Virus record (IMG/VR): IMGVR_UViG_3300044841_000066
Coordinates: 4,395-68,394 of that record
DNA: 64,000 nucleotides
Direction: 5' to 3' (one strand)
DNA from: a virus
Positions within the stretch are counted from its first letter, which is position 1. Every line of letters starts with the position of its first letter. The position numbers were made by a program, and so were the translations under genes. Positions 3,814 to 25,020 of the stretch are shown here, piece after piece. Under the pieces are notes generated by a model. The model was given only the letters and a program-made list of their open reading frames with translations. It did no database searches and was not told where the DNA came from.

Positions 3814-4563
3814 TTGCCCGATCGCAGCTCAATTACCAACCATGTCGTTGTATTCAGCGGCGGCATGGACTCGTTCACCCTCTTGCATAGTGTCCTCCGG
3901 CAAGAAGTTACCATTCCGCTTGACAATATCTACGCGCTGTCTTTTAACTACGGCCAGCGTCATAAGCGCGAGTTGAGCGCGGCAAAGATTGTATGCGATC
4001 GGCATGGCGTTTCGCAGCACTTCATCTCCCTGGCATTCCTGAATGATCTGTCGCCGATCTCAGCGCTGACCAGCGATACCCCGGTCCCGCATGGTCACTA
4101 TGCGGCGCCATCCATGAAGCAGACGGTTGTACCGGGGCGCAATACGATCATGCTGGCGGCGGCATTGGCGTTTGCCGAGGGCCTCGATCCGGATCGTCCT
4201 GGCATCATCTATTATGGCGCACATTCCGGCGATCATGACATCTACCCGGATTGCCGGCCAGCCTATATCGAGGCGATGCAGGCGGTTGTCTATACAGCCA
4301 CCGAAGGCCGCGTCATCCTCCGCGCGCCTTTCATGGACATGACCAAGGGCGACATCCTCAAGCATGGGTTGAACATCGGCCTGCTGGCGGAGAATTATCG
4401 GAATACCTGGACCTGCTATGCCGGCGGCGCAGTGTCATGTGGCAAATGCGGTTCATGCACCGAACGCCTGCTTGCGTTTGACGAGGCGGGCATGATCGAT
4501 CCCTTGGAATATCAGGATCGCGATAGCTACAAAGCGCAGGCCAAAGACGATCCAACCGCGTAA
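3814..4563 (+). CDS. queC: 7-cyano-7-deazaguanine (preQ0) synthase
   Basis: FSGGMDS PP-loop, YGQRH, VPGRN, YPDCRP, TWTCY..CGKCGSC Zn motif. Confidence 0.95.
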   Translation: MPDRSSITNHVVVFSGGMDSFTLLHSVLRQEVTIPLDNIYALSFNYGQRHKRELSAAKIVCDRHGVSQHFISLAFLNDLSPISALTSDTPVPHGHYAAPSMKQTVVPGRNTIMLAAALAFAEGLDPDRPGIIYYGAHSGDHDIYPDCRPAYIEAMQAVVYTATEGRVILRAPFMDMTKGDILKHGLNIGLLAENYRNTWTCYAGGAVSCGKCGSCTERLLAFDEAGMIDPLEYQDRDSYKAQAKDDPTA

Positions 4564-4603
4564 CGGGTTGATAATAAACCGAAATTTTAGTTGAAAAAAT
4601 CGC

Positions 4604-4638
4604 TTGCAACAGATAGACCAACCCGCTATCTGTTGCAA
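4604..4638 (+). promoter_or_regulatory. Promoter embedded in a perfect 13-bp inverted repeat (operator candidate)
   Basis: TTGCAACAGATAG-N9-CTATCTGTTGCAA, which contains TTGCAA-N16-CTATCT. Confidence 0.65.
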
Positions 4639-4699
4639 CGCAGTAAGGAAATCCCATCTGCGCGGAATTGCCCGCTCCCAGCATAAGGAACTCGATCCC

Positions 4700-5380
4700 A
4701 TGGCCAAGAAACCCGCCGCCTCCAAGGCGACCCATGACAAGCTCAAGGCCGCCGCGCCGGCCGCTGAGACGGCAACGACCACTCACGAGGCCGCCGTCGA
4801 GGCATCGACTGAGCGCATGGTCGATGAGGCGCTGAACGCGCAGAAGAATTCCGACCCGATCCTGGTCCACGATGAGCTGCTCGACATGGCGCGCGGTATC
4901 AAGGCCGATTTCGCTGATCAGGGCACCAAGGAAGACGACAAGACCTATCTCTGCCGGTTGATGGAAGTCATCTCTGATCTCGACGACCCCACTTTCGACA
5001 CCATGCAGCAGAAGACCCAGGATTGGTACAACGACACAGCGCGTGCCGAGTCCACGAGCAAGCCCTGGCCGCATGGCAACCCCGAGGGCTTCAGCTCCAA
5101 GTTCGGTGGCAAGGCCGACGCCAAGGCGCCCAAGGCACCCAAGGCCGCCGCTGAGAAGGCGCCCAAGGCCGCCAAGGCACCGCCGCCGGCCAAGGGACCG
5201 AGCATCACCCTCAAGGTGCGCGAACTCGTCTGCGCCAATCCCGGCATGAAGCTCGAAGAGCTGGAAAAGCAGCTTGCCGCTGTCGGCCATGTCGTCAAGA
5301 AATCGACGACCTCGACGATCCGCTCCGATGTTCTCGCGACAATCCAGGCCGCCAAGAATGTCGGGGTCTGGAAAAGCTAA
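4700..5380 (+). CDS. Ala/Lys-rich putative DNA-binding protein
   Basis: TAAGGA RBS; KAPKA repeats; helical C-terminal domain; strong codon bias. Confidence 0.7.
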   Translation: MAKKPAASKATHDKLKAAAPAAETATTTHEAAVEASTERMVDEALNAQKNSDPILVHDELLDMARGIKADFADQGTKEDDKTYLCRLMEVISDLDDPTFDTMQQKTQDWYNDTARAESTSKPWPHGNPEGFSSKFGGKADAKAPKAPKAAAEKAPKAAKAPPPAKGPSITLKVRELVCANPGMKLEELEKQLAAVGHVVKKSTTSTIRSDVLATIQAAKNVGVWKS

Positions 5381-5402
5381 GCCTTCCCGTCCTGACTGAT
5401 CC

Positions 5403-5440
5403 CATTACCGCCGCCCGGCACCAGCTAGGCGGCGGTAATG
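5403..5440 (+). terminator. 13-bp stem hairpin (terminator or RNA-processing site)
   Basis: CATTACCGCCGCC...GGCGGCGGTAATG; only a weak T tail. Confidence 0.55.
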
Positions 5441-5481
5441 TTGTCTGGGGTATATATCCAGGCAAGAGAGGATACGCCCGC

Positions 5482-6126
5482 ATGCAGCCGACCCACGACA
5501 AGCTCAAAGCCGCCGTCAGCCTACCGTCACCAACGCGTGCCGAGGCGCTGACAGCGGTCAGGACGTTGATCGCCTATATCGGGGACGATCCCCAACGCGA
5601 AGGCCTGCTGGATACGCCAGAGCGCGTGTTAAAGGCATGGGGCAAGGATTGGGGGCGCGGCTATCAGGAGATCGCGCCGGCCGATCTGATCCGCACCTTC
5701 GAGGGGCAACATAACCCCGCTTACCTGCATCCGGCGCCGCGCCGCTATGACCAGATGGTCGTTGTCAAGAACATCGACATCTTCAGTTGCTGCGAGCACC
5801 ACATGGCGCCGTTCTTTGGCCGCGCGCATATCGCCTATGTGCCGGGGAGCAAGGGGTTGGTCGGCCTATCCAAGCTGGCGCGGGTGGCGGATCATTTCTC
5901 GCGCCGGCTTCAGGTGCAAGAGCGGTTGACCGAGCAGGTGGCCGGCTTCTTGGCTGAGCACCTATCCCCGCATATCGCTGTCATGCTCGCCTGCACCCAT
6001 CTATGCATGGTCAGCCGGGGCGTGCAGCAGGCGCATTCGATTACTCAGACAACCGCATTGCGGGGAGACTTTTACAATGATCCGACCACGAGGGCGGAGT
6101 TCCTCCGCGCCTGCCCCGTCGCCTAA
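5482..6126 (+). CDS. folE: GTP cyclohydrolase I
   Basis: REGLLDTPERV, CEHHMAPFFG, GLSKLAR, RRLQVQERLT, HLCMVSRG. Confidence 0.95.
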   Translation: MQPTHDKLKAAVSLPSPTRAEALTAVRTLIAYIGDDPQREGLLDTPERVLKAWGKDWGRGYQEIAPADLIRTFEGQHNPAYLHPAPRRYDQMVVVKNIDIFSCCEHHMAPFFGRAHIAYVPGSKGLVGLSKLARVADHFSRRLQVQERLTEQVAGFLAEHLSPHIAVMLACTHLCMVSRGVQQAHSITQTTALRGDFYNDPTTRAEFLRACPVA

Positions 6127-7162
6127 ATGCAACATAATTTTGGATAGTGGGGCGTATAGCGCGTGGCGGTCCGGCAAGCCGATCGATCTGGATAAGTACT
6201 GCGACTACCTGCTGGCCAACACGGATTGGATCGGGAGCTATGTCGCGCTCGATGTGATCAATCCCGGCAATCCTGAGGCGGCGGCCAAGGCCAGCTTTGA
6301 TAACTACGAGCATATGCGAGCGCGCGGCCTCGATCCGATCCCTGTCTACCATGTCGGCGAGGACATCTCCTGGCTCTACCGCATGCTGGATGCCGGCGCC
6401 TCCTATATCGGGTTGTCGGCCAGCTCACTGGTCAGCCGCAACAAGGTGGATGATTGGTATGCGCTGGCATGGTCGCATTTGGTTAACTCCGAAGGCTTGC
6501 CGATCATCAAGGCGCATGCCTTCGGGGAGGGGCGCCCGGCCAGCCTCAAGCAATTCCCTTGGTACTCGGCGGATACCACAAGCTGGATTTACACTGCACA
6601 AAGAACGGGTCAGGTGACCTTGCCGGATGGCCAGAGCCTGTCGATGCGGAACGATGGCGGCGGGTCGAAGTCGGCACCGGCCGCCGACGGCTTGCCCGAG
6701 ATCGAGCGCGCCATATTCGACGAGCTGCTCAAAGATGCCAAGATCAACCCGGCGGCATTCCAGGCCGAGGGGATCACCGCCAAGCTGATCCGCACCTACC
6801 TGACAGCGATCTACTACCTACGCTGCCAGGATGCGGTGCGCGCCATGCATCCGATCCGCCATCAACCTGTCGGGTTCTTTCACAATGGCTTCTCGGCCGC
6901 GCCCAAGATCAGCTTTAAGGAATTCAACTTTCACTTGGTGATCGGCACCAACGACACAGCATACGCGGTGATTGCCAAGCTCTTGCATCCGAATGTGTTG
7001 ATTTCCTACTTCATGCTGGCCGGGGTCGATCCGATCCGCCAAGCAACGAACGGGCATCTCGTCAAGCTCCTCAGTCAATTCGCCGCTGATCCGGTGGCGG
7101 CGGTCAAGGCTGAGGACCGCTGGAACCGCTATTGGGTTATTTTGGAGGAATATGTGAAATGA
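6077..7162 (+). CDS. dpdA: DpdA-like 7-deazaguanine DNA transglycosylase (TGT fold), copy 1
   Basis: LDSGAYS, LDVI, PVYH, YIGL, HAFG, YSADTTSW motifs; directly after folE. Confidence 0.8.
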   Translation: MIRPRGRSSSAPAPSPKCNIILDSGAYSAWRSGKPIDLDKYCDYLLANTDWIGSYVALDVINPGNPEAAAKASFDNYEHMRARGLDPIPVYHVGEDISWLYRMLDAGASYIGLSASSLVSRNKVDDWYALAWSHLVNSEGLPIIKAHAFGEGRPASLKQFPWYSADTTSWIYTAQRTGQVTLPDGQSLSMRNDGGGSKSAPAADGLPEIERAIFDELLKDAKINPAAFQAEGITAKLIRTYLTAIYYLRCQDAVRAMHPIRHQPVGFFHNGFSAAPKISFKEFNFHLVIGTNDTAYAVIAKLLHPNVLISYFMLAGVDPIRQATNGHLVKLLSQFAADPVAAVKAEDRWNRYWVILEEYVK

Positions 7163-8229: not shown

Positions 8230-8234
8230 CAGAC

Positions 8235-8438
8235 ATGGTTCGGGGTAATTTCGAAACGCTAAAGCAACTCGATACGCTGCTCATGATGCCCTACCTTGAG
8301 GTAGTAGCAAGACAGATCGCTGCGGATACAATGCGATTGGTTGCGGATAAGCATGGTCTGCGCTTACCCGATGATCTTTGGCAACAAGCGATCGGCAAAG
8401 CCCAAGAGAAAATTGCCAATGATTTCGGGTTGAAGTAG
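8235..8438 (+). CDS. Small hypothetical protein
   Basis: GGAG RBS; fills the gap between clamp and methyltransferase. Confidence 0.6.
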   Translation: MVRGNFETLKQLDTLLMMPYLEVVARQIAADTMRLVADKHGLRLPDDLWQQAIGKAQEKIANDFGLK

Positions 8439-8442: not shown

Positions 8443-9384
8443 ATGGGCTTTTTTGACATACCAGTAGAGACAACAATCGAGCATCCCGACTGCTCGATTG
8501 TTGTGGGCAATTGCCTGGATATCCTACCCACGCTGGCCGCAAGTTCGGCGCAAAGCTGCGTCACCTCGCCACCCTATTTCGGTCTGCGCGACTACGGCGT
8601 TGATGGGCAGATCGGGCTTGAGCCATCGCCGGACGAATATGTCGCTGAGCTGGTCAAGGTGTTTCGCGGGGTCTGGCGCGTCTTGCGCGATGACGGGACA
8701 CTATGGCTCAACCTGGGTGATAGTTATTGCACCACCGCGCCTGGAAGTATAGTCGATCCTGCAAAAATGACAGGCATACATGTGCATAAGGGTGCCTATA
8801 GAAGACCTGAAACACCGCCGGGTCTAAAACCAAAAGACCTGATCGGCATTCCCTGGCGCGTCGCCTTCGCCTTGCAAGCGGACGGTTGGTATCTGCGCAG
8901 CGGCATTGTCTGGAACAAACTTAACCCCATGCCCGAAAGTGCCACAGATCGGCCAACATCATCGTATGAAATGGTCTTTCTCATGAGCAAGGCGGTGCAG
9001 TATTACTATGATGCCGCCGCAATTGCTGAGCTTTCTGTGGACGAAGGGCGCCCGAGCGGACCAAAAAGCGATCCAAGTCGCAATGACGGCAATCGTACAG
9101 GGATAATCAAAGGAAATGGCGCTACGCGTAACGCACGCAATGTCTGGACTATTTCCACATTACCATATGATGGCGCCCATTTCGCCGTCATGCCGCCGGC
9201 ACTCGCTGGACGCTGCATCAAGGCGGGCAGCAGGCCGGGCGATCTGATCCTCGATCCATTCGGCGGTGCGGCAACAACGGGATTGGCGGCGGCGCAGCTT
9301 GGTCGCAAGGCCATGCTGATCGAACTCAATCCGGCGTCGGCCAAGCTCGGGCGCGAGCGCGTCGCCAGAGAGCTGTATCGCTGA
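8443..9384 (+). CDS. Beta-class amino DNA methyltransferase (N4-C/N6-A)
   Basis: TSPPY catalytic motif, WLNLGD, HFAVMP, LDPFGG SAM-binding motif. Confidence 0.9.
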   Translation: MGFFDIPVETTIEHPDCSIVVGNCLDILPTLAASSAQSCVTSPPYFGLRDYGVDGQIGLEPSPDEYVAELVKVFRGVWRVLRDDGTLWLNLGDSYCTTAPGSIVDPAKMTGIHVHKGAYRRPETPPGLKPKDLIGIPWRVAFALQADGWYLRSGIVWNKLNPMPESATDRPTSSYEMVFLMSKAVQYYYDAAAIAELSVDEGRPSGPKSDPSRNDGNRTGIIKGNGATRNARNVWTISTLPYDGAHFAVMPPALAGRCIKAGSRPGDLILDPFGGAATTGLAAAQLGRKAMLIELNPASAKLGRERVARELYR

Positions 9385-12300
9385 TGGGCTTCTTTGCGCC
9401 GGATGTTGTCGAGAAGCCGGCTGAGCAGAAACGCCCGGTCGGTCGCGCCCCGAAAGCCGCCAAGGGCTTTGACAATAACGCAAGAGGCTGCGACAATTGC
9501 GCGCTGAAGGCGAACTGGAGTTGGGTGACAACATCGCGTATGCCACTATCCGGCAACACGCGGAACCCGGATATCCTCATACTCGGTGAGAACCCGGATG
9601 AGGAAGACGACAAGAAAGGGATAACCTTCATTGGTGCCGCCGGCAATCGGCTCCGCCGGGCCATTCCAGGGCGTGAACTGGAACGCTGCGCATTCGTCCA
9701 CATGACGCGCTGCCGTGTGCGCAATGACGCCCGCCCCTCAGCACATGATGTGCATTCCTGCTCGACCCATCTTGAGGACGACATCGCGCGCTTACCGATC
9801 AAGGCGATCATCGGGATAGGGCCGGTACCGCTGGCGCGGTTCTTCCCCGGCGCGCAGATAACCCGCATGCATGGCCTGCGTTTCCCCGTTCAGATCGGCG
9901 GCAAGATACTATGGTATTACCCGATCTTTGCGCCGTCCTATATCGAGGGAACGGGAGGCGATCGATCCGCCGCCCTCCCCCAGCTCAAGGCCGATGTAAA
10001 GCGGTTCTTCGCGGAGGTCGATCGCTGGGGTGCGCCGCGCATCTGGAAGCCTGATCCGGACGATGTCTTACTGCCCAAGACGCTTGAGGATGCGCAGGAA
10101 ATCCTCGATGCCATGCAAGGCCGACTGGGGATCGACATCGAGACAACAGGATTACGCTTTGCCGTCAAGGATGCGCAGATACTGACCGCCGCGATCAGCG
10201 ACGGCGAGATCACGATGTCTTTCGCTTGCGCGCATCCCGAGGCACCGACCGATTGGGGCCTCGATTTCCTCTTGCATGTTTTGGAGCACTATAAGTGGGT
10301 ACCGCATAATGCGGTCTTTGAACTTGTGTGGTTATTGCATGCGCGCAATCAGAAAGGTTTAACCTTCGAGCCGGCGCATTACGAGGACTCGATGGCGATC
10401 GGGCGCATCCTCCATGAGCGTGCCGGAATGCTCGGCCTGGACGATATGTCGCGGATGCATCTCGGTGCCGACTTCAAGGCAGCGGTTAAGGTCAATCGCA
10501 ACAATATCATCAACGAACCATTAGAGCGCGTCCTGCCCTATAACGGCCTGGATGCCCAAGCATGCGTGTTATTGTGCAAGCATCTACGCAAACGCCTACG
10601 CGGCAAGGATGAAAGCAACTATATCCGGCTCTTGAATTCCACGCGTTCATTTGCCGAGATGGAGCTGCGCGGTCTGGACATCGATATTCAGGCCGCCAAG
10701 GACTTGAAAGAGCATTGGGGCGGCTTGCTCAAGGAGGCATCGGAGAACGCGCGAACGATTTACGAAGTGCGCGAGTTCGAGCGCGTCAAGCAGATCGAGT
10801 TCAACATAGGCTCGAATGAGCATATCGGCGAAGCGCTCGTTGAGTTCGGCCGCCTTGTGTTGCCGAAGACCAATAAGGGACAGGGCAAAACCTGGAGCAC
10901 CGACGACCAGGAGTTGCAGAAATACGAGGATAACCCGCTCGTTAAGGCGGTGCTGGCCTATCGCGAGGCGCAGCGGATCGAGAGCACCTATATTGATCCG
11001 GTCATGGCCGCCTATGAGAACAATTTCGATCAGCGCTTGCACCCGTCTTACACATGCATGCACACCGAGACCGGGCGGCCATCCAGTGAGGCGCCGAATA
11101 TCCAGAACTTCCCTAAGCGCAAGCATCGCGAAGTCAGGTTGATGGTTGTCGCCCCGTCTGGCCACATCATTGTATCGTTTGATTACGGGCAGATCGAGGC
11201 GCGCGGTTTCTGCTTTGCAACAAAGGATCGCCAGCTCTGCGAGGATACAATTAAAGGCCAGGATATTCATTCGCGCTGGCGCGATCGTTCGCTCGAACTC
11301 CATCCTGACTATATTATCCGGTTGGCCGAGAAGACCAATGAAACCGAAGAAAAGCTGATCCTTAAAGGTGGCCGCGACATCATCAAGACAGATTTTGTAT
11401 TTGCCTCGTTCTTTGGCTCGACCGCGCGCTCTGTGGCTGAGCGGACAGGCCTACCGTTGAATGTTGCCGAGAAGATGTTGGCCGAGTTCTGGAAGCGCTA
11501 TCCCGGCGTGCTGGCCTGGGTCAAGGCCAAGCGCAAGGAATACCAGGATACCGGATCAGCACGCACCTTGACGGGCATGGTCCGGCATCAGACGCTGTGG
11601 GGGAACGAGCCGCTCAATTGTGTGGATTATGAGACAGAGGCATTAACACAGCGCGGATGGGTGAATGGTGCTGACTTAAGAGCCGGCGATGTTCTTTTAA
11701 CAATGAGCGCTGAGCGTCAAATGCTTGAGTGGCAATCCGCCACCGATGTAAAGCAATATCCAGAATACGAAGGTGTTGTGCATAGGTTGGACGGCAAGAG
11801 TTTTAGCGTAGCGACAACCCCAAATCATCGTTGGGCGTATCAGAAAGACTCTTCTACTGACTTTTCATTCTATGAGGCCACAACGGAGACATTGCCGAAA
11901 TGGGGATCGATCCCACGAATTCGCCCATACAATGCGCCGAGCAAGGCGGCGTATTCCGATGACTGGATAAGACTTGTTGGTTGGGTATTGACAGATGGTT
12001 GCTATACGAACAAGACAAGCGATGCGCCGAGCTGGGATTATAGGCGAACAAAGGCTAACGGCTATTCAGGCAGTCAAGTAGCTGTATGTCAGAAGAAGAG
12101 CGGCAATATTGCTGAGCTGGACGCGTTGTTCAAGCGTTTGCCTTTTCCGTCTAGAACAAAGCTCGCGCACAATAGAGCCGAAGATGAGGAACTATTCTGG
12201 ACTTTCAGTGGTTTGCCAGGACAATGGTTTTATGGTAATTTTCCGGATCGTGTTCTAAGGCCTGAATTCTTACTTCAGCTCCCCAAGGAACAGCTCATCA

Positions 12301-16573: not shown

Positions 16574-17065
16574 ATGACCAACAAAGAAACGCCGGTTCTT
16601 GGCCGGCGGGTGGAAATGCCCACCAATCCGCATTCGTTTTTCATCGATACCGTTCTCGCTCCGTTGCCTCCATTACCTGATCCAGGTAGCGGTGTTACAT
16701 TCGTTCGTCGGGCGTCGATGATGGCGCGCTTTTCCTGTCCCGAATTCACCTCTCTCTGTCCTGTAACGGGTCAGCCGGATTACGCCCACATCATCATCGA
16801 CTATGTGCCGAAAGCCCTGCTGATCGAGAGTAAATCGCTGAAACTGTTCCTGACCTCGTTCCGCAATCATGGGGCCTATCACGAGGCGTGCACCTGCCTG
16901 ATCGGGGATCGCCTATGGCAAGCGGCCGAACCCGCCTGGATGCGCGTCAACGCCTACTGGTTCCCGCGTGGCGGCATCCCGATCGATGTGTTCTGGGAAT
17001 GCGGTGAGCGTCCGGAACGCCTTGTCGTGCCGCCGATCGACATCCCCAGCTACCGCGCCCGCTAA
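16574..17065 (+). CDS. queF: NADPH-dependent preQ0 reductase (type I), makes preQ1
   Basis: PEFTSLCPVTGQPD, ESKSLKLF QueF motif, YHE, PRGGI. Confidence 0.93.
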   Translation: MTNKETPVLGRRVEMPTNPHSFFIDTVLAPLPPLPDPGSGVTFVRRASMMARFSCPEFTSLCPVTGQPDYAHIIIDYVPKALLIESKSLKLFLTSFRNHGAYHEACTCLIGDRLWQAAEPAWMRVNAYWFPRGGIPIDVFWECGERPERLVVPPIDIPSYRAR

Positions 17066-18306: not shown

Positions 18307-18687
18307 ATGCGCTTTCTCGTCTGCGGCGGCCAAACCTACGGAACTGAGCGCGACGAGGATCGCTTTCTTTACGCCGCCCTTACGCGTTTGTATGACAAGG
18401 TTGGGATTACTGCTATTATCCACGGTGCCTGTCATACACCCATCAACGCGGATAAGCTCGCAGGTCAGTGGGCGCGCGATTTCGGCATTATTGAGCACGC
18501 CTATCCGGTAGATCACGCACTAGATGGGCCGTGGCCAGCCGCCGGGAATGTGCGCAATCACCGCATGCTTTATGACAAAGATAGTCGGCCGGATGGCGGT
18601 GTCTCTTTTCCCGGTGGCAATGGAACCAAACACATGACCGATCTCATGCGCAAAGCCGGGCTTATCGTATGGGAGCCAAGACGTTGA
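18307..18687 (+). CDS. SLOG/YspA-like (DUF2493-type) protein
   Basis: LVCGG, IIHGA, ADKLA..WA, AGNVRN..ML, FPGGNGT..M. Confidence 0.8.
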   Translation: MRFLVCGGQTYGTERDEDRFLYAALTRLYDKVGITAIIHGACHTPINADKLAGQWARDFGIIEHAYPVDHALDGPWPAAGNVRNHRMLYDKDSRPDGGVSFPGGNGTKHMTDLMRKAGLIVWEPRR

Positions 18688-19244
18688 GGGCCGGGGGAGG
18701 CAAGGAAAAGGGTTCTAGTTGGGAACGCGAAGTCGGCAAGGCGCTGTCCTTGTGGCTGACAGCTGGCGAGCGCCCCGACATCTTCTCACGCAATGTGCTC
18801 TCGGGCGGGTCGTTTACCCAGGCGCAGAGCCGTGGTAATCGATCGAGCCGGATGCCGGGGGACCTGATGGCCGCACATCCGCTGGCCTTCCGCTTCATGG
18901 AGCACTATGCGGTAGAGTGCAAGCATCTGGCGACCCTGGGTCTTGAGGCTTTTCTATTCGACGACAAGAGCGCGTGCGAATTGTCCAAGATCATCATGTA
19001 TGCCAATGGGCAAGCGCAGCAAGCCGGCCTCGAATACATGATCGTCGCCAAGCAGAACCGGCGTGATCCATTCGTAATCACAACAGGTGAGATCGGCGCC
19101 CGTATCCTGGCCGCCGCGCGCGTAGGTCGGGTACGCTTGCAGCCGCCGCATCATTGGTTGCATCGTCGTCGGGTGTTCATGATGAAGTTCGAGTATATGA
19201 CAGGGACGATTGACCCCGATCTACTCTTGAGCGCGACAAAGTGA
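18669..19244 (+). CDS. Holliday junction resolvase (PD-(D/E)xK)
   Basis: KGSSWEREV, GDL, VECK motifs. Confidence 0.8.
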   Translation: MGAKTLRAGGGKEKGSSWEREVGKALSLWLTAGERPDIFSRNVLSGGSFTQAQSRGNRSSRMPGDLMAAHPLAFRFMEHYAVECKHLATLGLEAFLFDDKSACELSKIIMYANGQAQQAGLEYMIVAKQNRRDPFVITTGEIGARILAAARVGRVRLQPPHHWLHRRRVFMMKFEYMTGTIDPDLLLSATK

Positions 19245-19864
19245 TTGCCTACGCATCTGTTACAGGATCGAGCCGGAATAAGCAGGCCATCGAGGCCGCT
19301 GGATGGCATTGGCTGTTCACGCCTGGAGCAGCCAGGGACGGGTATACGCCCTATGCGCTAGATAATGGCGCGTGGCGGGCGTTCAAGGCAAAACAGGCGC
19401 TCGATCTTGTGGCTTTTCAGCGGATGCTGGACAGGTTTGGTCAGAATGCCGAATTCATCATTTTACCGGATATTGTGGGCGAAGGTGAACGATCCTTAGA
19501 ACTAACGCTGGAGTGGCTTCCCAAGTGTCGCGGACACCGCCAATTACTGATTGCTGTTCAGAATGGCATTGAGCCGGCGATGATCGCGCCCTATCTGGCG
19601 CCCGATGTCGGTATATTCCTGGGTGGCGATACTGACTGGAAGTTGGAAACAGGCGCGCAATGGGGCAAACTCGCCGAAAAGCATGACGTCTATTTTCATG
19701 TCGGCCGGGTCAATACCGCACAGCGCATTATTTGGTGTTCGCAGATCGGCGCCGATAGCTTCGACGGCACATCGGCCTCGCGTTATTCGAAGACAGTAAA
19801 GAGCCTATGCAATGCCATGAAGCAACCAAGTATATTAAGATTAGCTTCTGAGGTAATGCTATGA
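19241..19864 (+). CDS. Second, minimal TGT-fold/DpdA-like transglycosylase
   Basis: LDNGAW, LPDIVG, AVQNG, FLGG, HVGRVN and DSFDGT follow the order of TGT motifs DSGG, LD, VQG, IGG, LxG and DxFD. Confidence 0.6.
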   Translation: MIAYASVTGSSRNKQAIEAAGWHWLFTPGAARDGYTPYALDNGAWRAFKAKQALDLVAFQRMLDRFGQNAEFIILPDIVGEGERSLELTLEWLPKCRGHRQLLIAVQNGIEPAMIAPYLAPDVGIFLGGDTDWKLETGAQWGKLAEKHDVYFHVGRVNTAQRIIWCSQIGADSFDGTSASRYSKTVKSLCNAMKQPSILRLASEVML

Positions 19865-20856
19865 TCCTGACCGCGGACTTACACTTGACGGACGCCCCAC
19901 AAGACGAATACCGATGGGCGATCTTTGACCATCTCCTCAGATTGGCCAAAGAGGAAACCGACAGCGAGATCGTAATCCTCGGTGACATCACCGACCGCAA
20001 GGATCGGCACAGCTCGATCCTTGTCAATCGCCTGATGATGGCGCTGCGCAAGCTGCTGGATGCCGGCAATAGCGTCACAATCCTGATGGGCAATCATGAC
20101 AAGCCATTGGCGGGAACCCCGTTCTGGCAATTCCTCGATCTGTTGGAAAGCCGCAAGCTGAGGTTTATCACAAAGCCGCTTTCCTATGGTGGCGATCTCT
20201 ATTTGCCTTATGCCGGCAATCCGGCCGAAGAGTGGAATGGCATCAAGCTGAGCGGACATACGACCATCTTTATGCATCAGACGGTGACCGGCGCCTTGGG
20301 CAATAACGGGATCAGGCTCGAAAACAACAAGATGGTCGAGTTCCCGCGCGGCGCCAAGGTCTACTCAGGGGATATTCATACCCCACAAGTCGTTGGCCGG
20401 GTGACCTATGTCGGTGCCCCGCATCATGTGGCTTTCGGCGACGACTACGAGTGCCGGATACTTGTGCTCGACGCCAAGGCGAACATTCGGCGCGTTGTCC
20501 AGCTATCGCCGCCGGCCAAGCGCATGCTGCGCGTCGGCTCGATCGCGGAACTGGAACGCCGGCCTGTCTGCAAGGGCGATCAGGCGCGCGTCATCTACAA
20601 GCTGACCCTAAACGACATTGATCGCTGGCCGGCTATTCAGGACCAAATCACGATGTGGGCTGAGGAACACGGGATCATCCTGGCTTCCGTTGAGCCGGAT
20701 ATCGAGGGCCTTGTCCGCGATCAGGACGCCGACGCTGAGTTGCCCGACTTCGATATTGATCCCGAGTCGGTGCTCAAGATGTTTGCCGAGGCCGAAGGTA
20801 TAGACGCCTCGATGCTCGATGTCGGGTTGATATTCTTGCGAGAAGGCGTTGGTTGA
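19861..20856 (+). CDS. sbcD: SbcD/Mre11-like metallophosphoesterase nuclease
   Basis: ADLH, LGD, GNHD, FMHQ, SGDIH. Confidence 0.88.
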   Translation: MILTADLHLTDAPQDEYRWAIFDHLLRLAKEETDSEIVILGDITDRKDRHSSILVNRLMMALRKLLDAGNSVTILMGNHDKPLAGTPFWQFLDLLESRKLRFITKPLSYGGDLYLPYAGNPAEEWNGIKLSGHTTIFMHQTVTGALGNNGIRLENNKMVEFPRGAKVYSGDIHTPQVVGRVTYVGAPHHVAFGDDYECRILVLDAKANIRRVVQLSPPAKRMLRVGSIAELERRPVCKGDQARVIYKLTLNDIDRWPAIQDQITMWAEEHGIILASVEPDIEGLVRDQDADAELPDFDIDPESVLKMFAEAEGIDASMLDVGLIFLREGVG

Positions 20857-21281
20857 TGAGCCAGATCGACAATTTCAAGGGTCAATATGCCTTTTTGTCT
20901 AATTTCGGCAAGTATACCATTGCCTGGAAAGGCGCGCGCTTTCCTACCCTGGAACATGCCTACCAATGGGCGAAAGCGACCAACGATGTGGATCGTGCGG
21001 CTATCGCGAGTGCGCAAACCCCCGGCGATGCCAAGCGCGCCGGCCGACGCTGCACAATACGCGCGGATTGGGATCAAGTCAAAAACGACATCATGCTTGA
21101 GCTGTTGCGCATCAAGTTCAAGAACGACTACTTGGCCTATCTGCTGATATGCACCGGCGACGCTGAGCTGATCGAGGGCAACACCTGGGGTGATGTCTAC
21201 TGGGGCGTCTGCAAGGGCGTTGGACAGAATATGCTCGGCAAGCTGCTCATGCAGGTTCGCCGCGAAATAGAAGAGAACTGA
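20853..21281 (+). CDS. NADAR family hydrolase
   Basis: FLSNF, EHAYQ..K, DW...K..IM, KF, TGDAELIE, WGD.YWG, GQNMLGKLLM.VR. Confidence 0.9.
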   Translation: MMSQIDNFKGQYAFLSNFGKYTIAWKGARFPTLEHAYQWAKATNDVDRAAIASAQTPGDAKRAGRRCTIRADWDQVKNDIMLELLRIKFKNDYLAYLLICTGDAELIEGNTWGDVYWGVCKGVGQNMLGKLLMQVRREIEEN

Positions 21282-21284
21282 TCA

Positions 21285-23078: not shown

Positions 23079-23137
23079 TGCCCGGCCTGTCGGTATATCT
23101 ATTCGAGACATCGACAGGATAACAATAGGGGTAGCAC

Positions 23138-23692
23138 ATGCGCGCTTTCGAGCTTATCGAGCGACTGATTAATTCCGACCACGCGACCATCATGGTGCAC
23201 GATCTGACGGGCCACCTCGTCGAGCCAAAGGTGACAGTCACGCCGACCCCGGATGGGATCAGGCTGGTGATCGAGCCAGCGACGAACTCGATCACCAAGC
23301 GCGCCGCCGATCCGCTGTCGCTGAACGCTTATCAGGACTACGCCTATGCCGAGGCGATCTATCCTGAGCGCGGCAAAGGGACAACAGCGAGCATCTCGCT
23401 TGTCCTGGCCGGCTTGCTTGGCGAGAGCGGCAAAGCCATGCACTCCTGGTTTGATACGATGCGCGGCGGCAAGCCGCTGACCCAGGATACCAAGGACGAG
23501 CTAGTCACTGCATTGGCGCACTCGTTTTGGTATGTGGCGGCGCTGGCGCAAGAGCTTGGGGTGCCACTATCCCAAATCGGCGCGCAGAGCATCCGGCAAG
23601 CGCGGGCGTGGCGGCGGGCGACCGAGCTGGCCGAGCGTCAGGGCGATCTACGTCCCCAGAGCACGCGCATGGCGGCGGCGGGTGATAGCTGA
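23138..23692 (+). CDS. MazG-like NTP-pyrophosphatase fold, catalytic acids missing
   Basis: LNAYQ..A...AIYP, GLLGESG, WYVAALAQELGVPL. Confidence 0.65.
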   Translation: MRAFELIERLINSDHATIMVHDLTGHLVEPKVTVTPTPDGIRLVIEPATNSITKRAADPLSLNAYQDYAYAEAIYPERGKGTTASISLVLAGLLGESGKAMHSWFDTMRGGKPLTQDTKDELVTALAHSFWYVAALAQELGVPLSQIGAQSIRQARAWRRATELAERQGDLRPQSTRMAAAGDS

Positions 23693-23713
23693 TCCAATAG
23701 GGAGGGATCGCGC

Positions 23714-23947
23714 ATGATTAAAGCAAAAGGCACCGATGCCGATGGAAGGAAGACCCTAGTTCTCGGGCTTTCTTTCCAGAACCTTAAACGTCTACAGGCC
23801 GGCGATCCTATCGTTTTCGCAGCAGACGAATACGGTTACGCCGGAACCATCATGCTTTTCGCCGGCAAAGACGAAGCCACTATGGCGAAAATGCTGACAG
23901 AGGGTAACCCCGGCATTAAGACTCATTTTGAGAAAGGGGATAGCTGA
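23714..23947 (+). CDS. Small hypothetical protein
   Basis: GGAGG RBS; coupled to the next gene. Confidence 0.65.
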   Translation: MIKAKGTDADGRKTLVLGLSFQNLKRLQAGDPIVFAADEYGYAGTIMLFAGKDEATMAKMLTEGNPGIKTHFEKGDS

Positions 23948-24249
23948 TGCCCTACATTGGCCGCATGGCATCGGTGTCGCTAGAGATCGCCCATCTCGGT
24001 GAGGATGGCGTCATGCATGGGCACAGCCTGATCGCTGAGGTCTGGACGCATGCGGATACCTGCCTGGATGCTTGGCGGGCCAAGATCGTTGCCACAACCG
24101 CGCACATCAATCTGGGACAGCTCGAAACGACGATCTTCGCGCGGACTTTCGAGGATGTGGCCATCTGGATACTGGATGCCATGCCGGAGGCCTACCGCGT
24201 TGTCATCCGTCTGCCGACCTATGGCCACGCGATCGAGGTATATCGCTAG
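23947..24249 (+). CDS. queD: Miniature QueD/PTPS-like protein
   Basis: AH...HGHS Zn ligands and TFEDVAIWI (cf. TxENxAxWI); immediately upstream of queE. Confidence 0.6.
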   Translation: MPYIGRMASVSLEIAHLGEDGVMHGHSLIAEVWTHADTCLDAWRAKIVATTAHINLGQLETTIFARTFEDVAIWILDAMPEAYRVVIRLPTYGHAIEVYR

Positions 24250-24273
24250 GCCTAATCACAAAGGGATACGCCT

Positions 24274-25020
24274 ATGTACGGAAAAAATAGCGTCGCCAAA
24301 GCGCGCACCGCGGATGACGGCTTTCTGGTCCACTCAATCTTCTATACCTTGCAGGGAGAGGGGCCTTTCGCGGGCTTGCCGGCGATCTTCCTGCGGCTCG
24401 CCAACTGCAATCTGCGCTGTTTTTTCTGTGACACAGAATTTGAGAAGGTTAGCGCGTTAGCCGGCGGCGGCCACTATAGCGCGGATGTTTTGGGACAGAA
24501 ATTGGTCGCGCTTATGCTAAAGCACCGCTGTGAGCTGATCGTGATCACGGGTGGCGAACCGATGTTACAGCCGCTGCCTTCGCTTTTCGACTCTTTCGCG
24601 GATATGGAGGTGCGCTTTCAGATCGAGACAGCCGGCACCTGCTGGCCCGAGGGCTTGGAAAGCTGGTTCGGTGACGATAATTTCCTCACGATCGTGACCT
24701 CGCCAAAGACGGGCAGGGTGCTTGCTGAGATCGAGAAGTATACCAACGCCTGGAAATACATCATTCGGGCCGGCGAGACGGATGACGAGGATGGTCTGCC
24801 AAATGGTTCGACCCAGCTCATCGGCTCGAAGACTAGGCTTTACCGGCCGGATGGGTTAGGCTCTTTCGCTGACTTCGATCGGCGCTGCATCTTTGTCCAA
24901 CCCTGCGATGAAGCCGGCATCCATAAGGGCCGGGCCAATGTCGAGGAGGCCGCGCGGATCGCCATGAAATACGGCTATCGGCTTAGCCTACAGCTGCACA
25001 AGATCGCAGGCTTGGACTAA
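24274..25020 (+). CDS. queE: 7-carboxy-7-deazaguanine synthase (radical SAM)
   Basis: IFYTLQGEG, CNLRCFFCDT, ITGGEP, IETAG, SPK, LSLQLHK. Confidence 0.95.
   Translation: MYGKNSVAKARTADDGFLVHSIFYTLQGEGPFAGLPAIFLRLANCNLRCFFCDTEFEKVSALAGGGHYSADVLGQKLVALMLKHRCELIVITGGEPMLQPLPSLFDSFADMEVRFQIETAGTCWPEGLESWFGDDNFLTIVTSPKTGRVLAEIEKYTNAWKYIIRAGETDDEDGLPNGSTQLIGSKTRLYRPDGLGSFADFDRRCIFVQPCDEAGIHKGRANVEEAARIAMKYGYRLSLQLHKIAGLD

What the first reader, a model, noticed from the sequence alone, without database searches (positions are those of the whole stretch)
3814..25020. Complete preQ0/preQ1 pathway paired with TWO unrelated TGT-fold DNA transglycosylases
Seen: queC (3814), folE (5482), queF (16574), a mini-queD (23947) and queE (24274), plus two TGT-barrel proteins with no obvious similarity to each other. 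One is a 361-aa DpdA type (6077-7162; DSGAYS, PVYH, HAFG, SADTTSW). The other is a 207-aa minimal type (19241-19864; DNGAW, PDIVG, VQNG, FLGG, HVGRVN, DSFDGT). Known: phage DpdA swaps guanine in DNA for 7-deazaguanines, and QueF-encoding phages such as Dp-1 carry dPreQ1. Inference: two transglycosylases could insert two different bases (e.g. preQ0 and preQ1), cover two sequence contexts, or act on different substrates (DNA versus RNA, or foreign DNA). That would be a two-layer guanine-replacement system. The genes are spread over 21 kb among replication genes rather than clustered.
Basis: partly seen in the sequence, partly recalled or inferred. Interest (0 to 1): 0.85.

Follow-up and report, generated by a model that had tools for sequence, protein, structure and literature searches.

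The report
Phage with two deazaguanine DNA transglycosylases
A phage carries the whole pathway for making modified guanine bases plus two very distantly related enzymes that probably swap such bases into DNA, the second being a member of a large, unstudied family of unusually small enzymes.

Summary
The window (64 kb of a 68,394-nt viral record) encodes QueC, FolE, a unimodular QueF, a QueE-like radical-SAM protein and a 100-aa QueD-fold protein. It also encodes a DpdA1-type transglycosylase (6077-7162).

The 207-aa ORF (19241-19864) models confidently as a TIM barrel. It belongs to a large family (phrog_15826, no Pfam model). Invariant residues sit in register with the DpdA/TGT active site: two Asp, Gln in place of His, a GG loop and a third Asp. 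The Zn subdomain is absent.

The two proteins are therefore remote homologues, not "unrelated". In 29 of 80 other viral loci the small family lies next to QueC, QueE or FolE with no other TGT-like gene found. It is also found fused to QueC, and three times next to a YhhQ-type preQ0/preQ1 transporter.

The best reading is that it is a minimal DpdA-like base-exchange enzyme. In this phage it is an insertion between two genes that are adjacent in syntenic relatives.

The DpdA1 plus mini-barrel pair is rare (0 of 50 and 0 of 50 records). It recurs in Vibrio phage R29Z, Arthrobacter phage Sonali and, split, in E. coli phages phiG7 and SHIN8. Those I checked for QueF (R29Z, Sonali, phiG7) lack it, so "one enzyme per base" is not the general explanation. 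No activity has been tested.

The parts
3814..4563 (+). QueC (7-cyano-7-deazaguanine synthase; CDG to preQ0)
   Evidence: PF06508 E 1.8e-55; TIGR00364 187.5 bits, above the cut-off of 150.3
4604..5380 (+). Unknown 258-aa ORF sitting between QueC and FolE; a conserved member of this module
   Evidence: No Pfam or NCBIfam hit. Homologues found in 13 of 80 DpdA1-type loci; position checked only in L095, where it lies between QueC and FolE, and L097, just upstream of QueC. ESM Atlas gave nothing useful
5482..6126 (+). FolE (GTP cyclohydrolase I)
   Evidence: PF01227 E 2.5e-60
6077..7162 (+). DpdA1-type DNA guanine transglycosylase (barrel in residues ~13-215, plus a C-terminal extension of unknown role)
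   Evidence: phrog_887 E 1.6e-36. tblastn hits 186 phage records, including CAjan DpdA at 33.5% identity, E 4e-17. Invariant D23, D59, H92, H147, D166 in alignment A2
16574..17065 (+). QueF, unimodular NADPH-dependent preQ0 reductase (preQ0 to preQ1)
   Evidence: TIGR03139 126.8 bits, above the cut-off of 86.9; PF14489 E 3.7e-29. The ESKSLKLF motif is in the sequence
18307..18687 (+). YspA/YAcAr SLOG-family protein; possibly linked to the mini-barrel (weak evidence)
   Evidence: PF10686 E 1e-7. A SLOG gene also lies directly after the mini-barrel gene in Vibrio phage R29Z. RecA and PDDEXK are directly adjacent in syntenic relative L086. Not found near the family in 80 viral loci
19241..19864 (+). 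207-aa minimal TGT/DpdA-like TIM barrel (phrog_15826 family); predicted 7-deazaguanine base-exchange enzyme
   Evidence: Model pLDDT 95. Foldseek to TGT and to phage 'queuine tRNA-ribosyltransferases'. Invariant D41, P76-D77, Q107-x-G109, G128-G129, H153, R156, N158, D175. hhalign to DpdA1. Association with QueC, QueE, FolE and Vut_1, and a QueC fusion
23947..24249 (+). 100-aa QueD/PTPS-fold protein (mini-QueD), with Asp where QueD has the catalytic Cys
   Evidence: Foldseek PDB: all listed hits with E<1e-3 are PTPS/QueD, TMq 0.67-0.81. The three Zn-site His are kept (H16, H24, H26), and D20 aligns with the Cys of R29Z QueD. Adjacent to QueE here and in 4 of 4 metagenome relatives
24274..25020 (+). 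QueE-like radical-SAM enzyme (CPH4 to CDG)
   Evidence: phrog_2076 E 3.4e-37; Radical_SAM E 2.3e-7; below the NCBIfam QueE cut-offs

Best explanation
The phage makes preQ0, and from it preQ1, out of GTP. The steps are FolE, a minimal QueD-fold enzyme, QueE, QueC and QueF.

It carries two base-exchange enzymes of the TGT/DpdA superfamily. The first (6077-7162) is an ordinary phage DpdA1 that belongs to a conserved QueC-(ORF258)-FolE-DpdA-clamp module.

The second (19241-19864) is a roughly 200-aa, Zn-less minimal barrel. It comes from a very large phage and prophage family that elsewhere partners with stand-alone QueC, QueE or a YhhQ-type preQ0/preQ1 importer. In this phage it was inserted between a PD-(D/E)XK nuclease gene and sbcD.

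I infer the following mechanism. D175 acts as nucleophile, D41 as general acid/base, and D77 with Q107 read the Watson-Crick edge. The G128-G129 loop accommodates the 7-substituent. The result is exchange of guanine in DNA for a 7-deazaguanine, most likely preQ0.

The two enzymes would act in parallel on phage DNA but on different targets (sequence context and/or base). That would raise the density or diversity of modification and so widen protection from restriction.

Shown: the gene content, the fold, the remote homology, the motif conservation and the genomic associations. Inferred: catalysis, DNA as the substrate, the base used, and any division of labour.
For: Fold:
- AF2 model pLDDT 95.0, pTM 0.90, eight strand/helix units.
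- Among PDB hits, TGT has the highest TM-score (0.56-0.62; one chain, 5lpt_A, 0.51).
- In BFVD, after one family member, the best named hits are phage 'queuine tRNA-ribosyltransferases' (Mufasa8 E 8.3e-7, TMq 0.66; Megan; Beppu rod-shaped virus).

Homology:
- hhalign of the family against the DpdA1 alignment gives E 9.8e-5, pairing D41/D23 and D77/D59.
- The extended local alignment puts D41/D23, D77/D59, Q107/H92, H153/H147 and D175/D166 in register.
- Sonali gp87, a DpdA1 (E 3.7e-26 to A2), aligns to the family with the Asp, His/Gln, GG and His positions matched (E 3.5e-4).
- There are reciprocal weak HMM cross-hits.
- These positions match the bacterial DpdA active site as described in PMC10164549 (passages read): D95, D130, H181, the G206-G207 loop after beta-6, and D256.
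- In the model they lie at the C-terminal ends of strands 3, 4, 5, 6 and 8.
- The family is one with the SEA-PHAGES 'DpdA-like tRNA-guanine transglycosylase' proteins. Nineteen positions are invariant across 9 diverse members.

Association:
- QueC lies within 10 kb in 24 of 80 viral loci, QueE in 7 of 80 and FolE in 1 of 80. That makes 29 of 80 loci with at least one, same strand; I checked about 9 of them, where the gene is within about 400 nt.
- QueC is the commonest neighbour family in an unbiased clustering.
- In 50 whole records, QueC is over cut-off in 11. There is no canonical DpdA or TGT in any.
- One 433-aa protein fuses the domain to QueC.
- A Vut_1/COG1738 transporter lies directly next to the gene in Roseobacter phage CRP-701, Rhodococcus phage ReqiPine5 and one IMG/VR record. 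This is the YhhQ preQ0/preQ1 importer family per PMC5372724.

Pairing and insertion:
- The pair with a canonical DpdA recurs in R29Z, Sonali and phiG7/SHIN8.
- In 3 of 3 syntenic relatives that show both genes, PDDEXK and SbcD are adjacent or 210 nt apart, with no mini-barrel.

Basic protein: the median pI of 40 members is 9.34.
Against: - No biochemical or genetic test exists for any member.
- In the PDB Foldseek list, generic TIM barrels have slightly better E-values than TGT (CitE 1.9e-4, MJ1099 2.0e-4, TrpA 3.3e-4, against TGT 5.2e-4). Bacterial DpdA 7UI4 is not among the 50 listed.
- The Pfam TGT and DUF6610 (DpdA4) HMMs find nothing in the record at E<=10.
- The hhalign probabilities are only 37-66%. 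The pairing D175/D166 lies in the low-confidence extension.
- The protein lacks the Zn site and the insertions that bacterial DpdA and TGT use to hold nucleic acid. It has Gln where they have His.
- Most family members have no que gene nearby: 51 of 80 loci; 39 of 50 whole records lack QueC; only 3 of 26 records at least 90% complete have it.
- Members occur in M. smegmatis phages with no que gene annotated within 6 kb. That host lacks the whole pathway according to PMC6884629. So at least some members must use another substrate or none.
- The pair is rare: 0 of 50 mini-barrel records have DpdA1, and 0 of 50 DpdA1 records have the mini-barrel.
Confidence: 0.55

Rival explanations
1. The mini-barrel belongs to 7-deazaguanine metabolism but does not modify phage DNA. 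It might exchange or release the base on another substrate. Candidates are host or phage tRNA, or free nucleotides and nucleosides (for example together with the neighbouring SLOG protein). That would supply or recycle bases for the true DNA enzyme, DpdA1.
For: The protein lacks the Zn subdomain and the insertions that TGT and bacterial DpdA use to hold nucleic acid. A SLOG-family gene lies beside it here (two genes upstream) and directly downstream in R29Z. By recall, the SLOG superfamily includes LOG nucleotide N-glycosidases. Co-occurrence with a full DpdA in four lineages suggests a non-redundant job.
Against: In the 11 of 50 QueC-bearing records, no other TGT-like protein was found (phrog_887 and PF01702 only) to put the base into DNA. 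Its usual neighbours besides QueC are DNA methyltransferases and replication genes. Family members are mostly basic proteins. SLOG was found near the family in 0 of 80 viral loci.
Confidence: 0.17
2. In this phage the mini-barrel has nothing to do with 7-deazaguanine. Either it is a base-exchange or glycosylase enzyme for another base or lesion, as must be true for members in mycobacteriophages whose host makes no preQ0. Or it is a functionless passenger acquired by insertion.
For: 51 of 80 loci have no que gene within 10 kb. Members occur in M. smegmatis phages without nearby que genes, and the host lacks the pathway (PMC6884629). The gene is an insertion absent from syntenic relatives. It lies among recombination and repair genes (PDDEXK, SbcCD, NADAR), not among the que genes. 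One 912-aa relative is fused to a PD-(D/E)XK nuclease domain.
Against: All family-invariant residues are intact in the window protein. The 24 of 80 QueC adjacency, the QueC fusion and the three YhhQ-type transporter adjacencies are hard to explain otherwise. In R29Z and phiG7 the gene sits inside the que/DpdA/replication module.
Confidence: 0.15
3. Strict division by base: DpdA1 inserts preQ1 and the mini-barrel inserts preQ0. The virion DNA would then carry two different 7-deazaguanines.
For: The phage makes both bases, because it has QueC and QueF. The mini-barrel family is never next to QueF (0 of 80 loci) but often next to QueC (24 of 80). Close DpdA1 relatives L085 and L093 carry QueF. 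PMC10516641 reports that DpdA subfamilies have shifted between preQ0 and preQ1, and that VH7D DpdA2 is promiscuous.
Against: The same enzyme pair occurs in R29Z, Sonali and phiG7, which have no QueF over cut-off. The pairing therefore does not need two bases. Nothing in the sequences predicts base preference.
Confidence: 0.2
4. The two proteins form a heterodimer, with the mini-barrel as a partner subunit of DpdA1. By recall, this would resemble the eukaryotic QTRT1/QTRT2 arrangement.
For: Only the recurrence of the pair in four lineages.
Against: The mini-barrel keeps its full set of catalytic-type residues. In most phages it occurs without any DpdA1: 50 of 50 records and 80 of 80 loci.
Confidence: 0.04

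Closest known systems
Phage DpdA1 (Escherichia phage CAjan / Enterobacteria phage 9g type 7-deazaguanine DNA transglycosylase; phrog_887)
   Same: ORF 6077-7162 is a member. phrog_887 scores E 1.6e-36, and it is 33.5% identical to CAjan DpdA over residues 19-185. It sits next to FolE and QueC. The 207-aa ORF shares the barrel and the order of active-site positions.
   Different: ORF 6077-7162 has a C-terminal ~145-residue extension that does not match the isolated phages' DpdA (coverage at most 58%). The 207-aa ORF is not a member: only weak cross-hits, Gln in place of the conserved His, and about 100 residues shorter.
Bacterial DpdA (Salmonella Montevideo, PDB 7UI4) and tRNA-guanine transglycosylases
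   Same: TIM barrel with three aspartates (general acid/base, base recognition, nucleophile). A Gly-Gly loop after strand 6 accommodates the 7-substituent (PMC10164549). The same pattern and spacing is invariant in the 207-aa family.
   Different: No CXCX2CX22H zinc site and no Ins1/2/3/8 insertions. No DpdB-like ATPase partner was looked for or seen. There is no Pfam PF01702 match. Half the size.
SEA-PHAGES 'DpdA-like tRNA-guanine transglycosylase' of actinobacteriophages (StevieRay gp54, Sonali gp81, Aoka gp40)
   Same: Same family as the 207-aa ORF: 26-37% identity in tblastn and alignment, with 19 invariant positions shared. Sonali also pairs it with a DpdA1 and QueC/D/E.
   Different: These are annotation labels only. 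I found no paper that tests or discusses them (listing). Many sit in phages of hosts without a preQ0 pathway. The proteobacterial branch to which the window protein belongs is unannotated.
DpdA3 and DpdA4 (DUF6610), the distant subfamilies named in PMC10516641
   Same: Also very divergent TGT-like proteins, found only by HHpred-type searches next to que genes. The ESM Atlas names a DUF6610 cluster as the nearest Pfam-labelled neighbour (score 0.91, a lead only).
   Different: PF20314 finds nothing in the record at E<=10. tblastn with the window protein and with the R29Z homologue hits no Campylobacter, Cellulophaga or halovirus record. Membership of DpdA3 could not be tested with a profile.
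QueD / 6-pyruvoyl-tetrahydropterin synthase (for ORF 23947-24249)
   Same: T-fold with the three zinc-binding His. The best structural matches are E. coli QueD and PTPS. It is adjacent to QueE.
   Different: 100 aa, lacking a ~50-residue internal segment of R29Z QueD. Asp/Asn stands at the catalytic Cys position. Below the Pfam cut-off.

Membership tests
TGT/DpdA superfamily (207-aa ORF 19241-19864) | (beta/alpha)8 TIM-barrel core most similar to TGT | tested here: met
   Model pLDDT 95. TGT has the highest TMq (0.56-0.62; one chain 0.51) in the PDB. Phage 'queuine tRNA-ribosyltransferases' lead in BFVD. Caveat: generic TIM barrels have similar E-values.
TGT/DpdA superfamily (207-aa ORF) | Three invariant active-site aspartates (acid/base, base recognition, nucleophile), as stated in PMC10164549 | tested here: met
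   D41, D77 and D175 are invariant in 40 and in 9 diverse members. D41 and D77 pair with DpdA1 D23 and D59 in the confident core of hhalign. D175/D166 pair only in the low-confidence extension. All lie at C-terminal strand ends.
TGT/DpdA superfamily (207-aa ORF) | Conserved His that reads the base (H181 of bacterial DpdA) | tested here: not met
   The aligned position is the invariant Gln107. By PMC6884629, DpdA2 also lacks a conserved His.
TGT/DpdA superfamily (207-aa ORF) | Structural zinc site CXCX2CX22H in the beta8/alpha8 insertion | tested here: not met
   No invariant Cys in A1, and only ~32 residues follow D175. DpdA1 alignment A2 has no invariant Cys either.
TGT/DpdA superfamily (207-aa ORF) | Significant match to curated models (Pfam PF01702 TGT; PF20314 DUF6610/DpdA4; phrog_887) | tested here: not met
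   No PF01702 or PF20314 hit at E<=10. phrog_887 gives only weak hits: 5 of 40 members (best E 8.6e-4) and 9 of 50 records.
TGT/DpdA superfamily (207-aa ORF) | Guanine / 7-deazaguanine base-exchange activity on nucleic acid | not testable with these tools
   Inferred only, from residues and from association with QueC, QueE, FolE and Vut_1.
Phage DpdA1 (ORF 6077-7162) | Profile and sequence match to experimentally characterised phage DpdA, and location beside preQ0 genes | tested here: met
   phrog_887 E 1.6e-36. CAjan, 9g-like and iggy-like DpdA genes hit by tblastn. Adjacent to FolE and QueC. D23, D59, H92 and D166 invariant.
QueD/PTPS (ORF 23947-24249) | T-fold with three zinc-binding His | tested here: met
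   All listed Foldseek PDB hits with E<1e-3 are PTPS/QueD, TMq 0.67-0.81. H16, H24 and H26 are invariant and align with the QueD His of R29Z.
QueD/PTPS (ORF 23947-24249) | Catalytic Cys four residues before the HGH motif; score above the Pfam PF01242 cut-off | tested here: not met
   Asp20 (Asp or Asn in 9 members) aligns with the Cys. PF01242 scores 13.6 bits against a cut-off of 22.4. PF01242 finds nothing else in the record.
QueF, unimodular (ORF 16574-17065) | Score above the TIGR03139 cut-off; NADPH motif | tested here: met
   126.8 bits against 86.9. ESKSLKLF fits the motif E(S/L)K(S/A)hK(l/Y)(Y/F/W) quoted in PMC10516641.

The most novel reading that the evidence does not exclude
The 207-aa protein represents a sixth, minimal (~200 aa, zinc-less) subfamily of 7-deazaguanine DNA transglycosylases. 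This subfamily is far more widespread than the named ones (2208 clusters at 50% identity). It would be the missing inserting enzyme for the many phages and prophages that carry only QueC, QueE or a YhhQ-type importer.

In this phage it was grafted onto a DpdA1/QueF backbone. The virion DNA would then be written by two enzymes with different targets: for example preQ1 at DpdA1 motifs and preQ0 at other motifs. That would be a combinatorial guanine-modification system.
Probability: 0.3. Interest if true: 0.8.

Novelty: new variant of a known kind. Interest (0 to 1): 0.62.

Why it matters
PMC10516641 treats 7-deazaguanine DNA modification as the work of one DpdA per virus, and treats DpdA as the signature gene for finding such viruses.

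If the minimal barrel family is active, that signature misses a large share of modifying phages and prophages. Those are the ones whose only other pathway genes are QueC, QueE or a precursor importer. The smallest known catalytic unit of a TGT-type enzyme would also shrink to about 200 residues without zinc.

A phage with two such enzymes offers a direct test of how target-motif or base specificity is set in this superfamily. It would also show whether stacking enzymes broadens escape from restriction. Isolated phages with both enzymes (Sonali, R29Z, phiG7/SHIN8) make the question testable now.

Tried and rejected
- Near-identical DNA in the phage collection: none. The closest isolated phages by DNA polymerase are only ~30% identical. 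Host and taxon remain unknown.
- Sequence searches of the PDB found nothing meaningful. I used the 207-aa protein, its profile, the DpdA1 profile and the mini-QueD profile.
- A Pfam scan of all 40 family members gave only weak DUF3151 hits (17 of 40, best E 0.0041) and scattered noise. I treated this as uninformative and did not follow it.
- ESM Atlas. For the 207-aa protein all 30 nearest clusters are unnamed, and the nearest named one is DUF6610 at 0.91, a lead only. For ORF 4604-5380 nothing useful came back.
- Earlier findings of this scan: none for this sequence.
- Relatives of the mini-QueD: none in viral contigs. Four short metagenome loci tell nothing about the two barrels.
- SLOG, PDDEXK, NADAR, SbcD, MazG or RecA homologues near the family in 80 viral loci: 0 of 80 by phmmer with the window proteins. 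The SLOG link therefore rests on two cases only.
- I asked whether the DpdA1 and mini-barrel proteins bind each other (complex prediction with A2 and A1). The result was no verdict, which is evidence neither for nor against.
I therefore could not fetch the 60,511-nt contig that is listed as longest contig for both a mini-barrel homologue (P0012) and a DpdA1 homologue (P0307). Whether they share that contig is unverified.
Supplementary Data S1 of PMC6884629 and PMC10516641 list every DpdA homologue the authors found and may already include members of the 207-aa family (for example among the 'singleton DpdA' groups). I could not check.
- Literature searches for 'two DpdA', 'second DpdA', 'DpdA paralog', 'two transglycosylases' and 'DpdA homologs' together with DpdA returned only PMC10516641, with none of the first four phrases. 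The search for 'DpdA-like' returned 6 papers. I read passages of one, PMC8306585, which concerns a different DpdA group.
- Papers seen: PMC6884629, PMC10516641, PMC10164549, PMC8306585, PMC5372724 and bioRxiv 10.64898/2026.04.15.718813 as passages, plus section 17 of PMC10516641. All others I saw as search listings or abstracts only.
The first 4,394 nt of the record outside the window were covered only by the whole-record searches.

Full report
**Setting.** The window is bases 4395-68394 of a 68,394-nt linear IMG/VR virus record that CheckV estimates to be 83% complete. There is no near-identical DNA in the phage collection. The closest isolated phages by DNA polymerase are only ~30% identical, for example Edwardsiella phage vB_EpM_ZHS and a group of Vibrio siphophages.

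The first 31 kb are + strand replication and recombination genes:
- a Toprim protein (primase-like by recall) and an N6/N4 DNA methylase;
- a UDG-domain/exonuclease/PolA fusion, sliding clamp and clamp loader;
- a gp32-like SSB and a UvsX/RecA-like recombinase;
- a SLOG protein, a PD-(D/E)XK nuclease, and SbcD / NADAR / SbcC;
- a MazG-like protein, a DnaB-like helicase, and SNF2 and UvrD helicases.

**The observation.** QueC, FolE and QueF pass curated cut-offs. QueF is the unimodular type and carries the NADPH motif that PMC10516641 gives for phage QueF proteins.

QueE is recognised by the PHROG QueE-like family (E 3.4e-37) and as a radical-SAM protein. It falls below every NCBIfam QueE equivalog cut-off.

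**The mini-QueD.** It has no significant family hit (PTPS E 0.067). Only 8 homologues turned up among 5.8 billion clusters.
- Its model (pLDDT 89.7) matches PTPS/QueD structures at every listed Foldseek rank with E<1e-3 (24 such matches in all), with TMq 0.67-0.81.
- The three zinc-site His are invariant.
- The position of the catalytic Cys, judged by alignment with the QueD of Vibrio phage R29Z, is Asp or Asn.
- It lies directly upstream of QueE here. It lies next to a QueE homologue in 4 of 4 metagenome relatives.
- No other PTPS-like gene exists in the record.

So the pathway GTP to preQ1 is complete on paper. The QueD step, however, is carried by an atypical enzyme whose activity is inferred.

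**The first transglycosylase.** ORF 6077-7162 matches phrog_887 over residues 13-213 (E 1.6e-36). Its N-terminal half hits 186 phage records by tblastn. These include CAjan, 9g-like, Pseudomonas (family 'iggy-like' by my label; iggy itself is not among the listed rows), Vid5 and Cellulophaga phi38:2 DpdA genes. CAjan and 9g DpdA are experimentally tied to dPreQ0/dG+ (PMC6884629).

In 80 IMG/VR loci with this DpdA type, the counts within 10 kb were FolE 64, QueC 57, QueE 44 and QueF 8. The twelve closest relatives share the order DpdA-clamp (12 of 12). Most also have FolE or QueC upstream, and five (L087, L088, L089, L091, L095) have a homologue of the unknown ORF 4604-5380.

**The second barrel.** ORF 19241-19864 starts with GTG, overlapping the stop of the upstream nuclease gene by 4 nt. 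Its own stop overlaps the ATG of sbcD.

The family is large. There were 801 proteins at E<=1e-3 in the word-indexed search. In the exhaustive search of 50%-identity representatives there were 2208 clusters, 884 of them at E<=1e-10. It equals phrog_15826 ('unknown function'; 40 of 40 members) and has no Pfam or NCBIfam model.

The AlphaFold model built on 40 homologues is confident (pLDDT 95.0, pTM 0.90) and is an eight-stranded beta/alpha barrel.
- Against the PDB, sixteen matches have E<=1e-3. Generic barrels have marginally better E-values: CitE, MJ1099, TrpA and triosephosphate isomerase at 1.9-3.6e-4.
- The tRNA-guanine transglycosylases (from 5.2e-4) have the highest TM-scores, 0.56-0.62 (one chain 0.51) against 0.45-0.58 for the others.
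- Against viral models, the best hits after one family member are proteins annotated as queuine tRNA-ribosyltransferase. These come from Arthrobacter phage Mufasa8 (E 8.3e-7), Microbacterium phage Megan and a Sulfolobales rod-shaped virus.

By tblastn the protein hits 25 phage records. They include actinophage genes that SEA-PHAGES annotators call 'DpdA-like tRNA-guanine transglycosylase'. An alignment of nine diverse members, these included, keeps 19 invariant positions.

**Relation to DpdA.**
- BLASTP already pairs LDNGAW...PDIV with LDSGAY...LDVI.
- hhalign of the family against a 35-sequence DpdA1 alignment gives E 9.8e-5 (probability 58%) over 45 columns. It pairs D41 with D23 and D77 with D59.
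- With more diverse members and a permissive local alignment, the match (E 5.5e-5, probability 66%) extends over 149 columns. It puts Q107/H92, H153/H147 and D175/D166 in register as well, though with low posterior confidence there.
- An independent DpdA1, Sonali gp87 (E 3.7e-26 to the DpdA1 alignment), aligns to the family at E 3.5e-4. The Asp, His/Gln, Gly-Gly and His positions are again matched.
- Cross-detection by HMMs is reciprocal and always on the same N-terminal motif region. phrog_887 hits the small genes in 9 of 50 records and 5 of 40 members. The family profile hits the DpdA1 genes in 7 of 50 records. Pfam TGT touches one family gene at E 0.009.

PMC10164549 gives the bacterial DpdA active site as follows: D95 (general acid/base), D130 and H181 (Watson-Crick edge), a Gly-rich loop after strand 6 (G206-G207, holding the 7-substituent) and D256 (nucleophile). 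All three Asp are invariant across TGT and DpdA, and there is a CXCX2CX22H zinc site in a large beta8/alpha8 insertion.

The small family has invariant D41, D77, Q107-x-G109, G128-G129 and D175. In the model these lie at the C-terminal ends of strands 3, 4, 5, 6 and 8. Their spacing (0, 36, 66, 87, 134) is close to that of the window's DpdA1 (0, 36, 69, 89, 143). It lacks the zinc site and all the insertions, and it has Gln where DpdA has His. Extra invariant basic or polar residues (K134, R156, N158, R162) and a median pI of 9.34 across 40 members would suit a nucleic-acid substrate. That last point is inference.

**Genomic association.** In 80 viral loci holding a family member, phmmer with the window's proteins found:
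- a QueC homologue in 24, QueE in 7 and FolE in 1;
- so 29 of 80 loci with at least one, on the same strand; in the roughly 9 whose coordinates I checked, the gene lies within about 400 nt of the family gene;
- QueF in 0 of 80, and DpdA1 in 0 of 80 (the single 'DpdA' hit is the family gene itself).

Two of the QueE-only loci (L039, L041) have identical coordinates and may be duplicates.

An unbiased clustering of neighbours within 3 kb ranks them as follows: QueC 24 loci, an N6/N4-type DNA methyltransferase 16, DnaB-like helicase 11, then integrase, terminase, a C5-methyltransferase and QueE with 7 each.

Whole-record searches covered 50 of the 80 records (the longest contigs):
- QueC over cut-off in 11 of 50, and in 3 of the 26 records at least 90% complete;
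- no canonical DpdA;
- no Pfam TGT over cut-off;
- a Vut_1 gene in 1 of 50, lying directly after the family gene.

Further links:
- One 433-aa protein fuses the family domain (residues 7-216) to a QueC domain (E 9e-36).
- In Roseobacter phage CRP-701 and Rhodococcus phage ReqiPine5 the gene next to the family member is a Vut_1/PF02592 protein (E 2.8e-9 and 1.4e-9). PF02592 is COG1738/YhhQ, the preQ0/preQ1 importer family (PMC5372724).
- PAPS-reductase-family PP-loop genes lie close by in ReqiPine5 and Erythrobacter phage R6L.

Together these tie the family to 7-deazaguanine bases. In the QueC-bearing phages it is the only candidate found for using them.

The opposite results must be kept in view:
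- 51 of 80 loci and 39 of 50 whole records show no que gene.
- Members occur in M. smegmatis phages with no que gene annotated within 6 kb.
- That host has none of the pathway, and a singleton-DpdA mycobacteriophage (Orion) showed no modification (PMC6884629).

**How unusual is the pair?** Among 50 records with the small family, none has a DpdA1. Among 50 records with DpdA1, including the twelve closest relatives of the window's enzyme, none has the small family. Many of these records are incomplete.

The relatives L086, L092 and L094 are syntenic with the window (DpdA-clamp-...-RecA-PDDEXK-SbcD). In all three that show both genes, the nuclease gene and sbcD are adjacent or 210 nt apart. The 624-nt gene is therefore an insertion specific to this phage's line.

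The pair is nevertheless recurrent in isolated phages:
- Vibrio phage vB_VpaS_R29Z has the order QueD-FolE-x-x-DpdA (phrog_887 E 8.3e-83)-x-x-mini-barrel-SLOG-DNA polymerase.
- Arthrobacter phage Sonali has gp81 (mini-barrel) and gp87 (DpdA1), followed by QueC, QueD and QueE.
- E. coli Seuratvirus phiG7 carries DpdA; both phiG7 and SHIN8 carry a homologue between the clamp and polymerase genes that is read in two frames. In phiG7, whose translation I read, all motifs are kept.

None of R29Z, Sonali or phiG7 has a QueF over cut-off. The two weak hits fall inside their FolE genes.

**Mechanism and rivals.** The most economical reading is that the small protein is a minimal DpdA-like enzyme using the TGT double-displacement chemistry. 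In this phage it would add a second specificity to that of DpdA1.

Phage DpdAs are motif-specific. CAjan modifies two motifs, and iggy a single GA motif (title and abstract in the listing). They typically modify 0.1-30% of G (PMC10516641). A second enzyme with other targets would therefore raise coverage.

Because the family partners with QueC and never with QueF, preQ0 is its likeliest base. Because this phage also makes preQ1, a split by base is possible here. It cannot be the general reason for the pair.

Rival readings cannot be excluded, and they are scored in the Rival explanations section:
- action on tRNA or on nucleotides;
- a substrate unrelated to 7-deazaguanine;
- a DpdA1 partner subunit.

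**Novelty.** Two-barrel phages are already visible in GenBank annotation. Sonali carries both function labels. Megan has two 'queuine tRNA-ribosyltransferase' entries in BFVD. I found no paper in the searchable library that mentions two DpdA genes in one phage or that characterises the small family.

The named subfamilies are bDpdA and DpdA1-4. The small family matches none of them by the tests I could run. DpdA3 could not be tested with a profile.

I therefore file this as a new variant of a known kind. It is a probable additional, minimal DpdA subfamily, seen here stacked on a DpdA1/QueF system. Interest is moderate to high for specialists, limited by the complete absence of functional data.

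Noticed in passing
window 4604-5380 (+): Unknown 258-aa ORF wedged between QueC and FolE. It has homologues in 13 of 80 DpdA1-type loci; I checked the position in L095 (between QueC and FolE) and L097 (just upstream of QueC). No family hit, and the Atlas model is poor. It may be a further, unrecognised component of the deazaguanine module.
   Followed up: partly
window 18307-18687 (+); L083 5348-5701: A YspA/YAcAr SLOG-family protein lies two genes upstream of the mini-barrel here, and directly downstream of it in Vibrio phage R29Z. In syntenic relative L086 RecA and PDDEXK are directly adjacent, leaving no room for it. Not seen near the family in 80 viral loci.
   Followed up: partly
window 9384-12968 (+): The DNA polymerase is a 1194-aa fusion of three domains: a uracil-DNA-glycosylase-superfamily domain (57-188), a 3'-5' exonuclease and family-A polymerase. 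The nearest isolated-phage polymerases are ~30% identical.
   Followed up: no
window 8443-9384 (+): An N6/N4 DNA methyltransferase (PF01555 E 9.4e-40) lies between the clamp and polymerase genes. The phage therefore has at least one further DNA-modification layer.
   Followed up: no
window 20853-21281 (+): A NADAR-domain protein (PF08719 E 6.2e-24) is inserted between sbcD and sbcC. By recall, NADAR proteins remove ADP-ribose from guanine in DNA. A homologue lies between DpdA and the clamp gene in relative L095.
   Followed up: no
window 23138-23692 (+): A MazG-like pyrophosphatase (phrog_229 E 3.8e-9) lies just upstream of the mini-QueD and QueE genes, separated from them by a 77-aa ORF. Any role in nucleotide-pool control for the modification pathway is speculation.
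   Followed up: no
L178 7001-7593 (Escherichia phage phiG7); also SHIN8: The mini-barrel homologue of these Seuratviruses is annotated as two ORFs and matches in two pieces in both. In phiG7, whose three frames I read, all family motifs are kept. It could be a recent break, a sequencing error or recoding; this was not resolved.
   Followed up: partly
L184 3524-4039 (CRP-701); L182 2273-2806 (ReqiPine5); G044 18440-18655: Phage-encoded Vut_1/YhhQ-type transporters lie directly next to mini-barrel genes in three unrelated phages. In CRP-701 the mini-barrel itself is annotated 'ssDNA-binding protein', and in Erythrobacter phage ZS04 'DarB-like antirestriction protein'. Both labels look wrong.
   Followed up: partly
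L182 3517-4434 (ReqiPine5 gp02); L001 3810-4853 (R6L gp7): PAPS-reductase-family PP-loop proteins lie one to three genes from the mini-barrel in two phages that lack QueC. They may be QueC analogues, or part of another modification.
   Followed up: no
proteins P0142, P0243, P0269, P0170: Longer proteins carry the mini-barrel domain fused to other parts. P0142 (912 aa) has a PD-(D/E)XK nuclease domain. P0243, P0269 and P0170 have N-terminal regions of 210-350 residues with no Pfam hit.
   Followed up: partly
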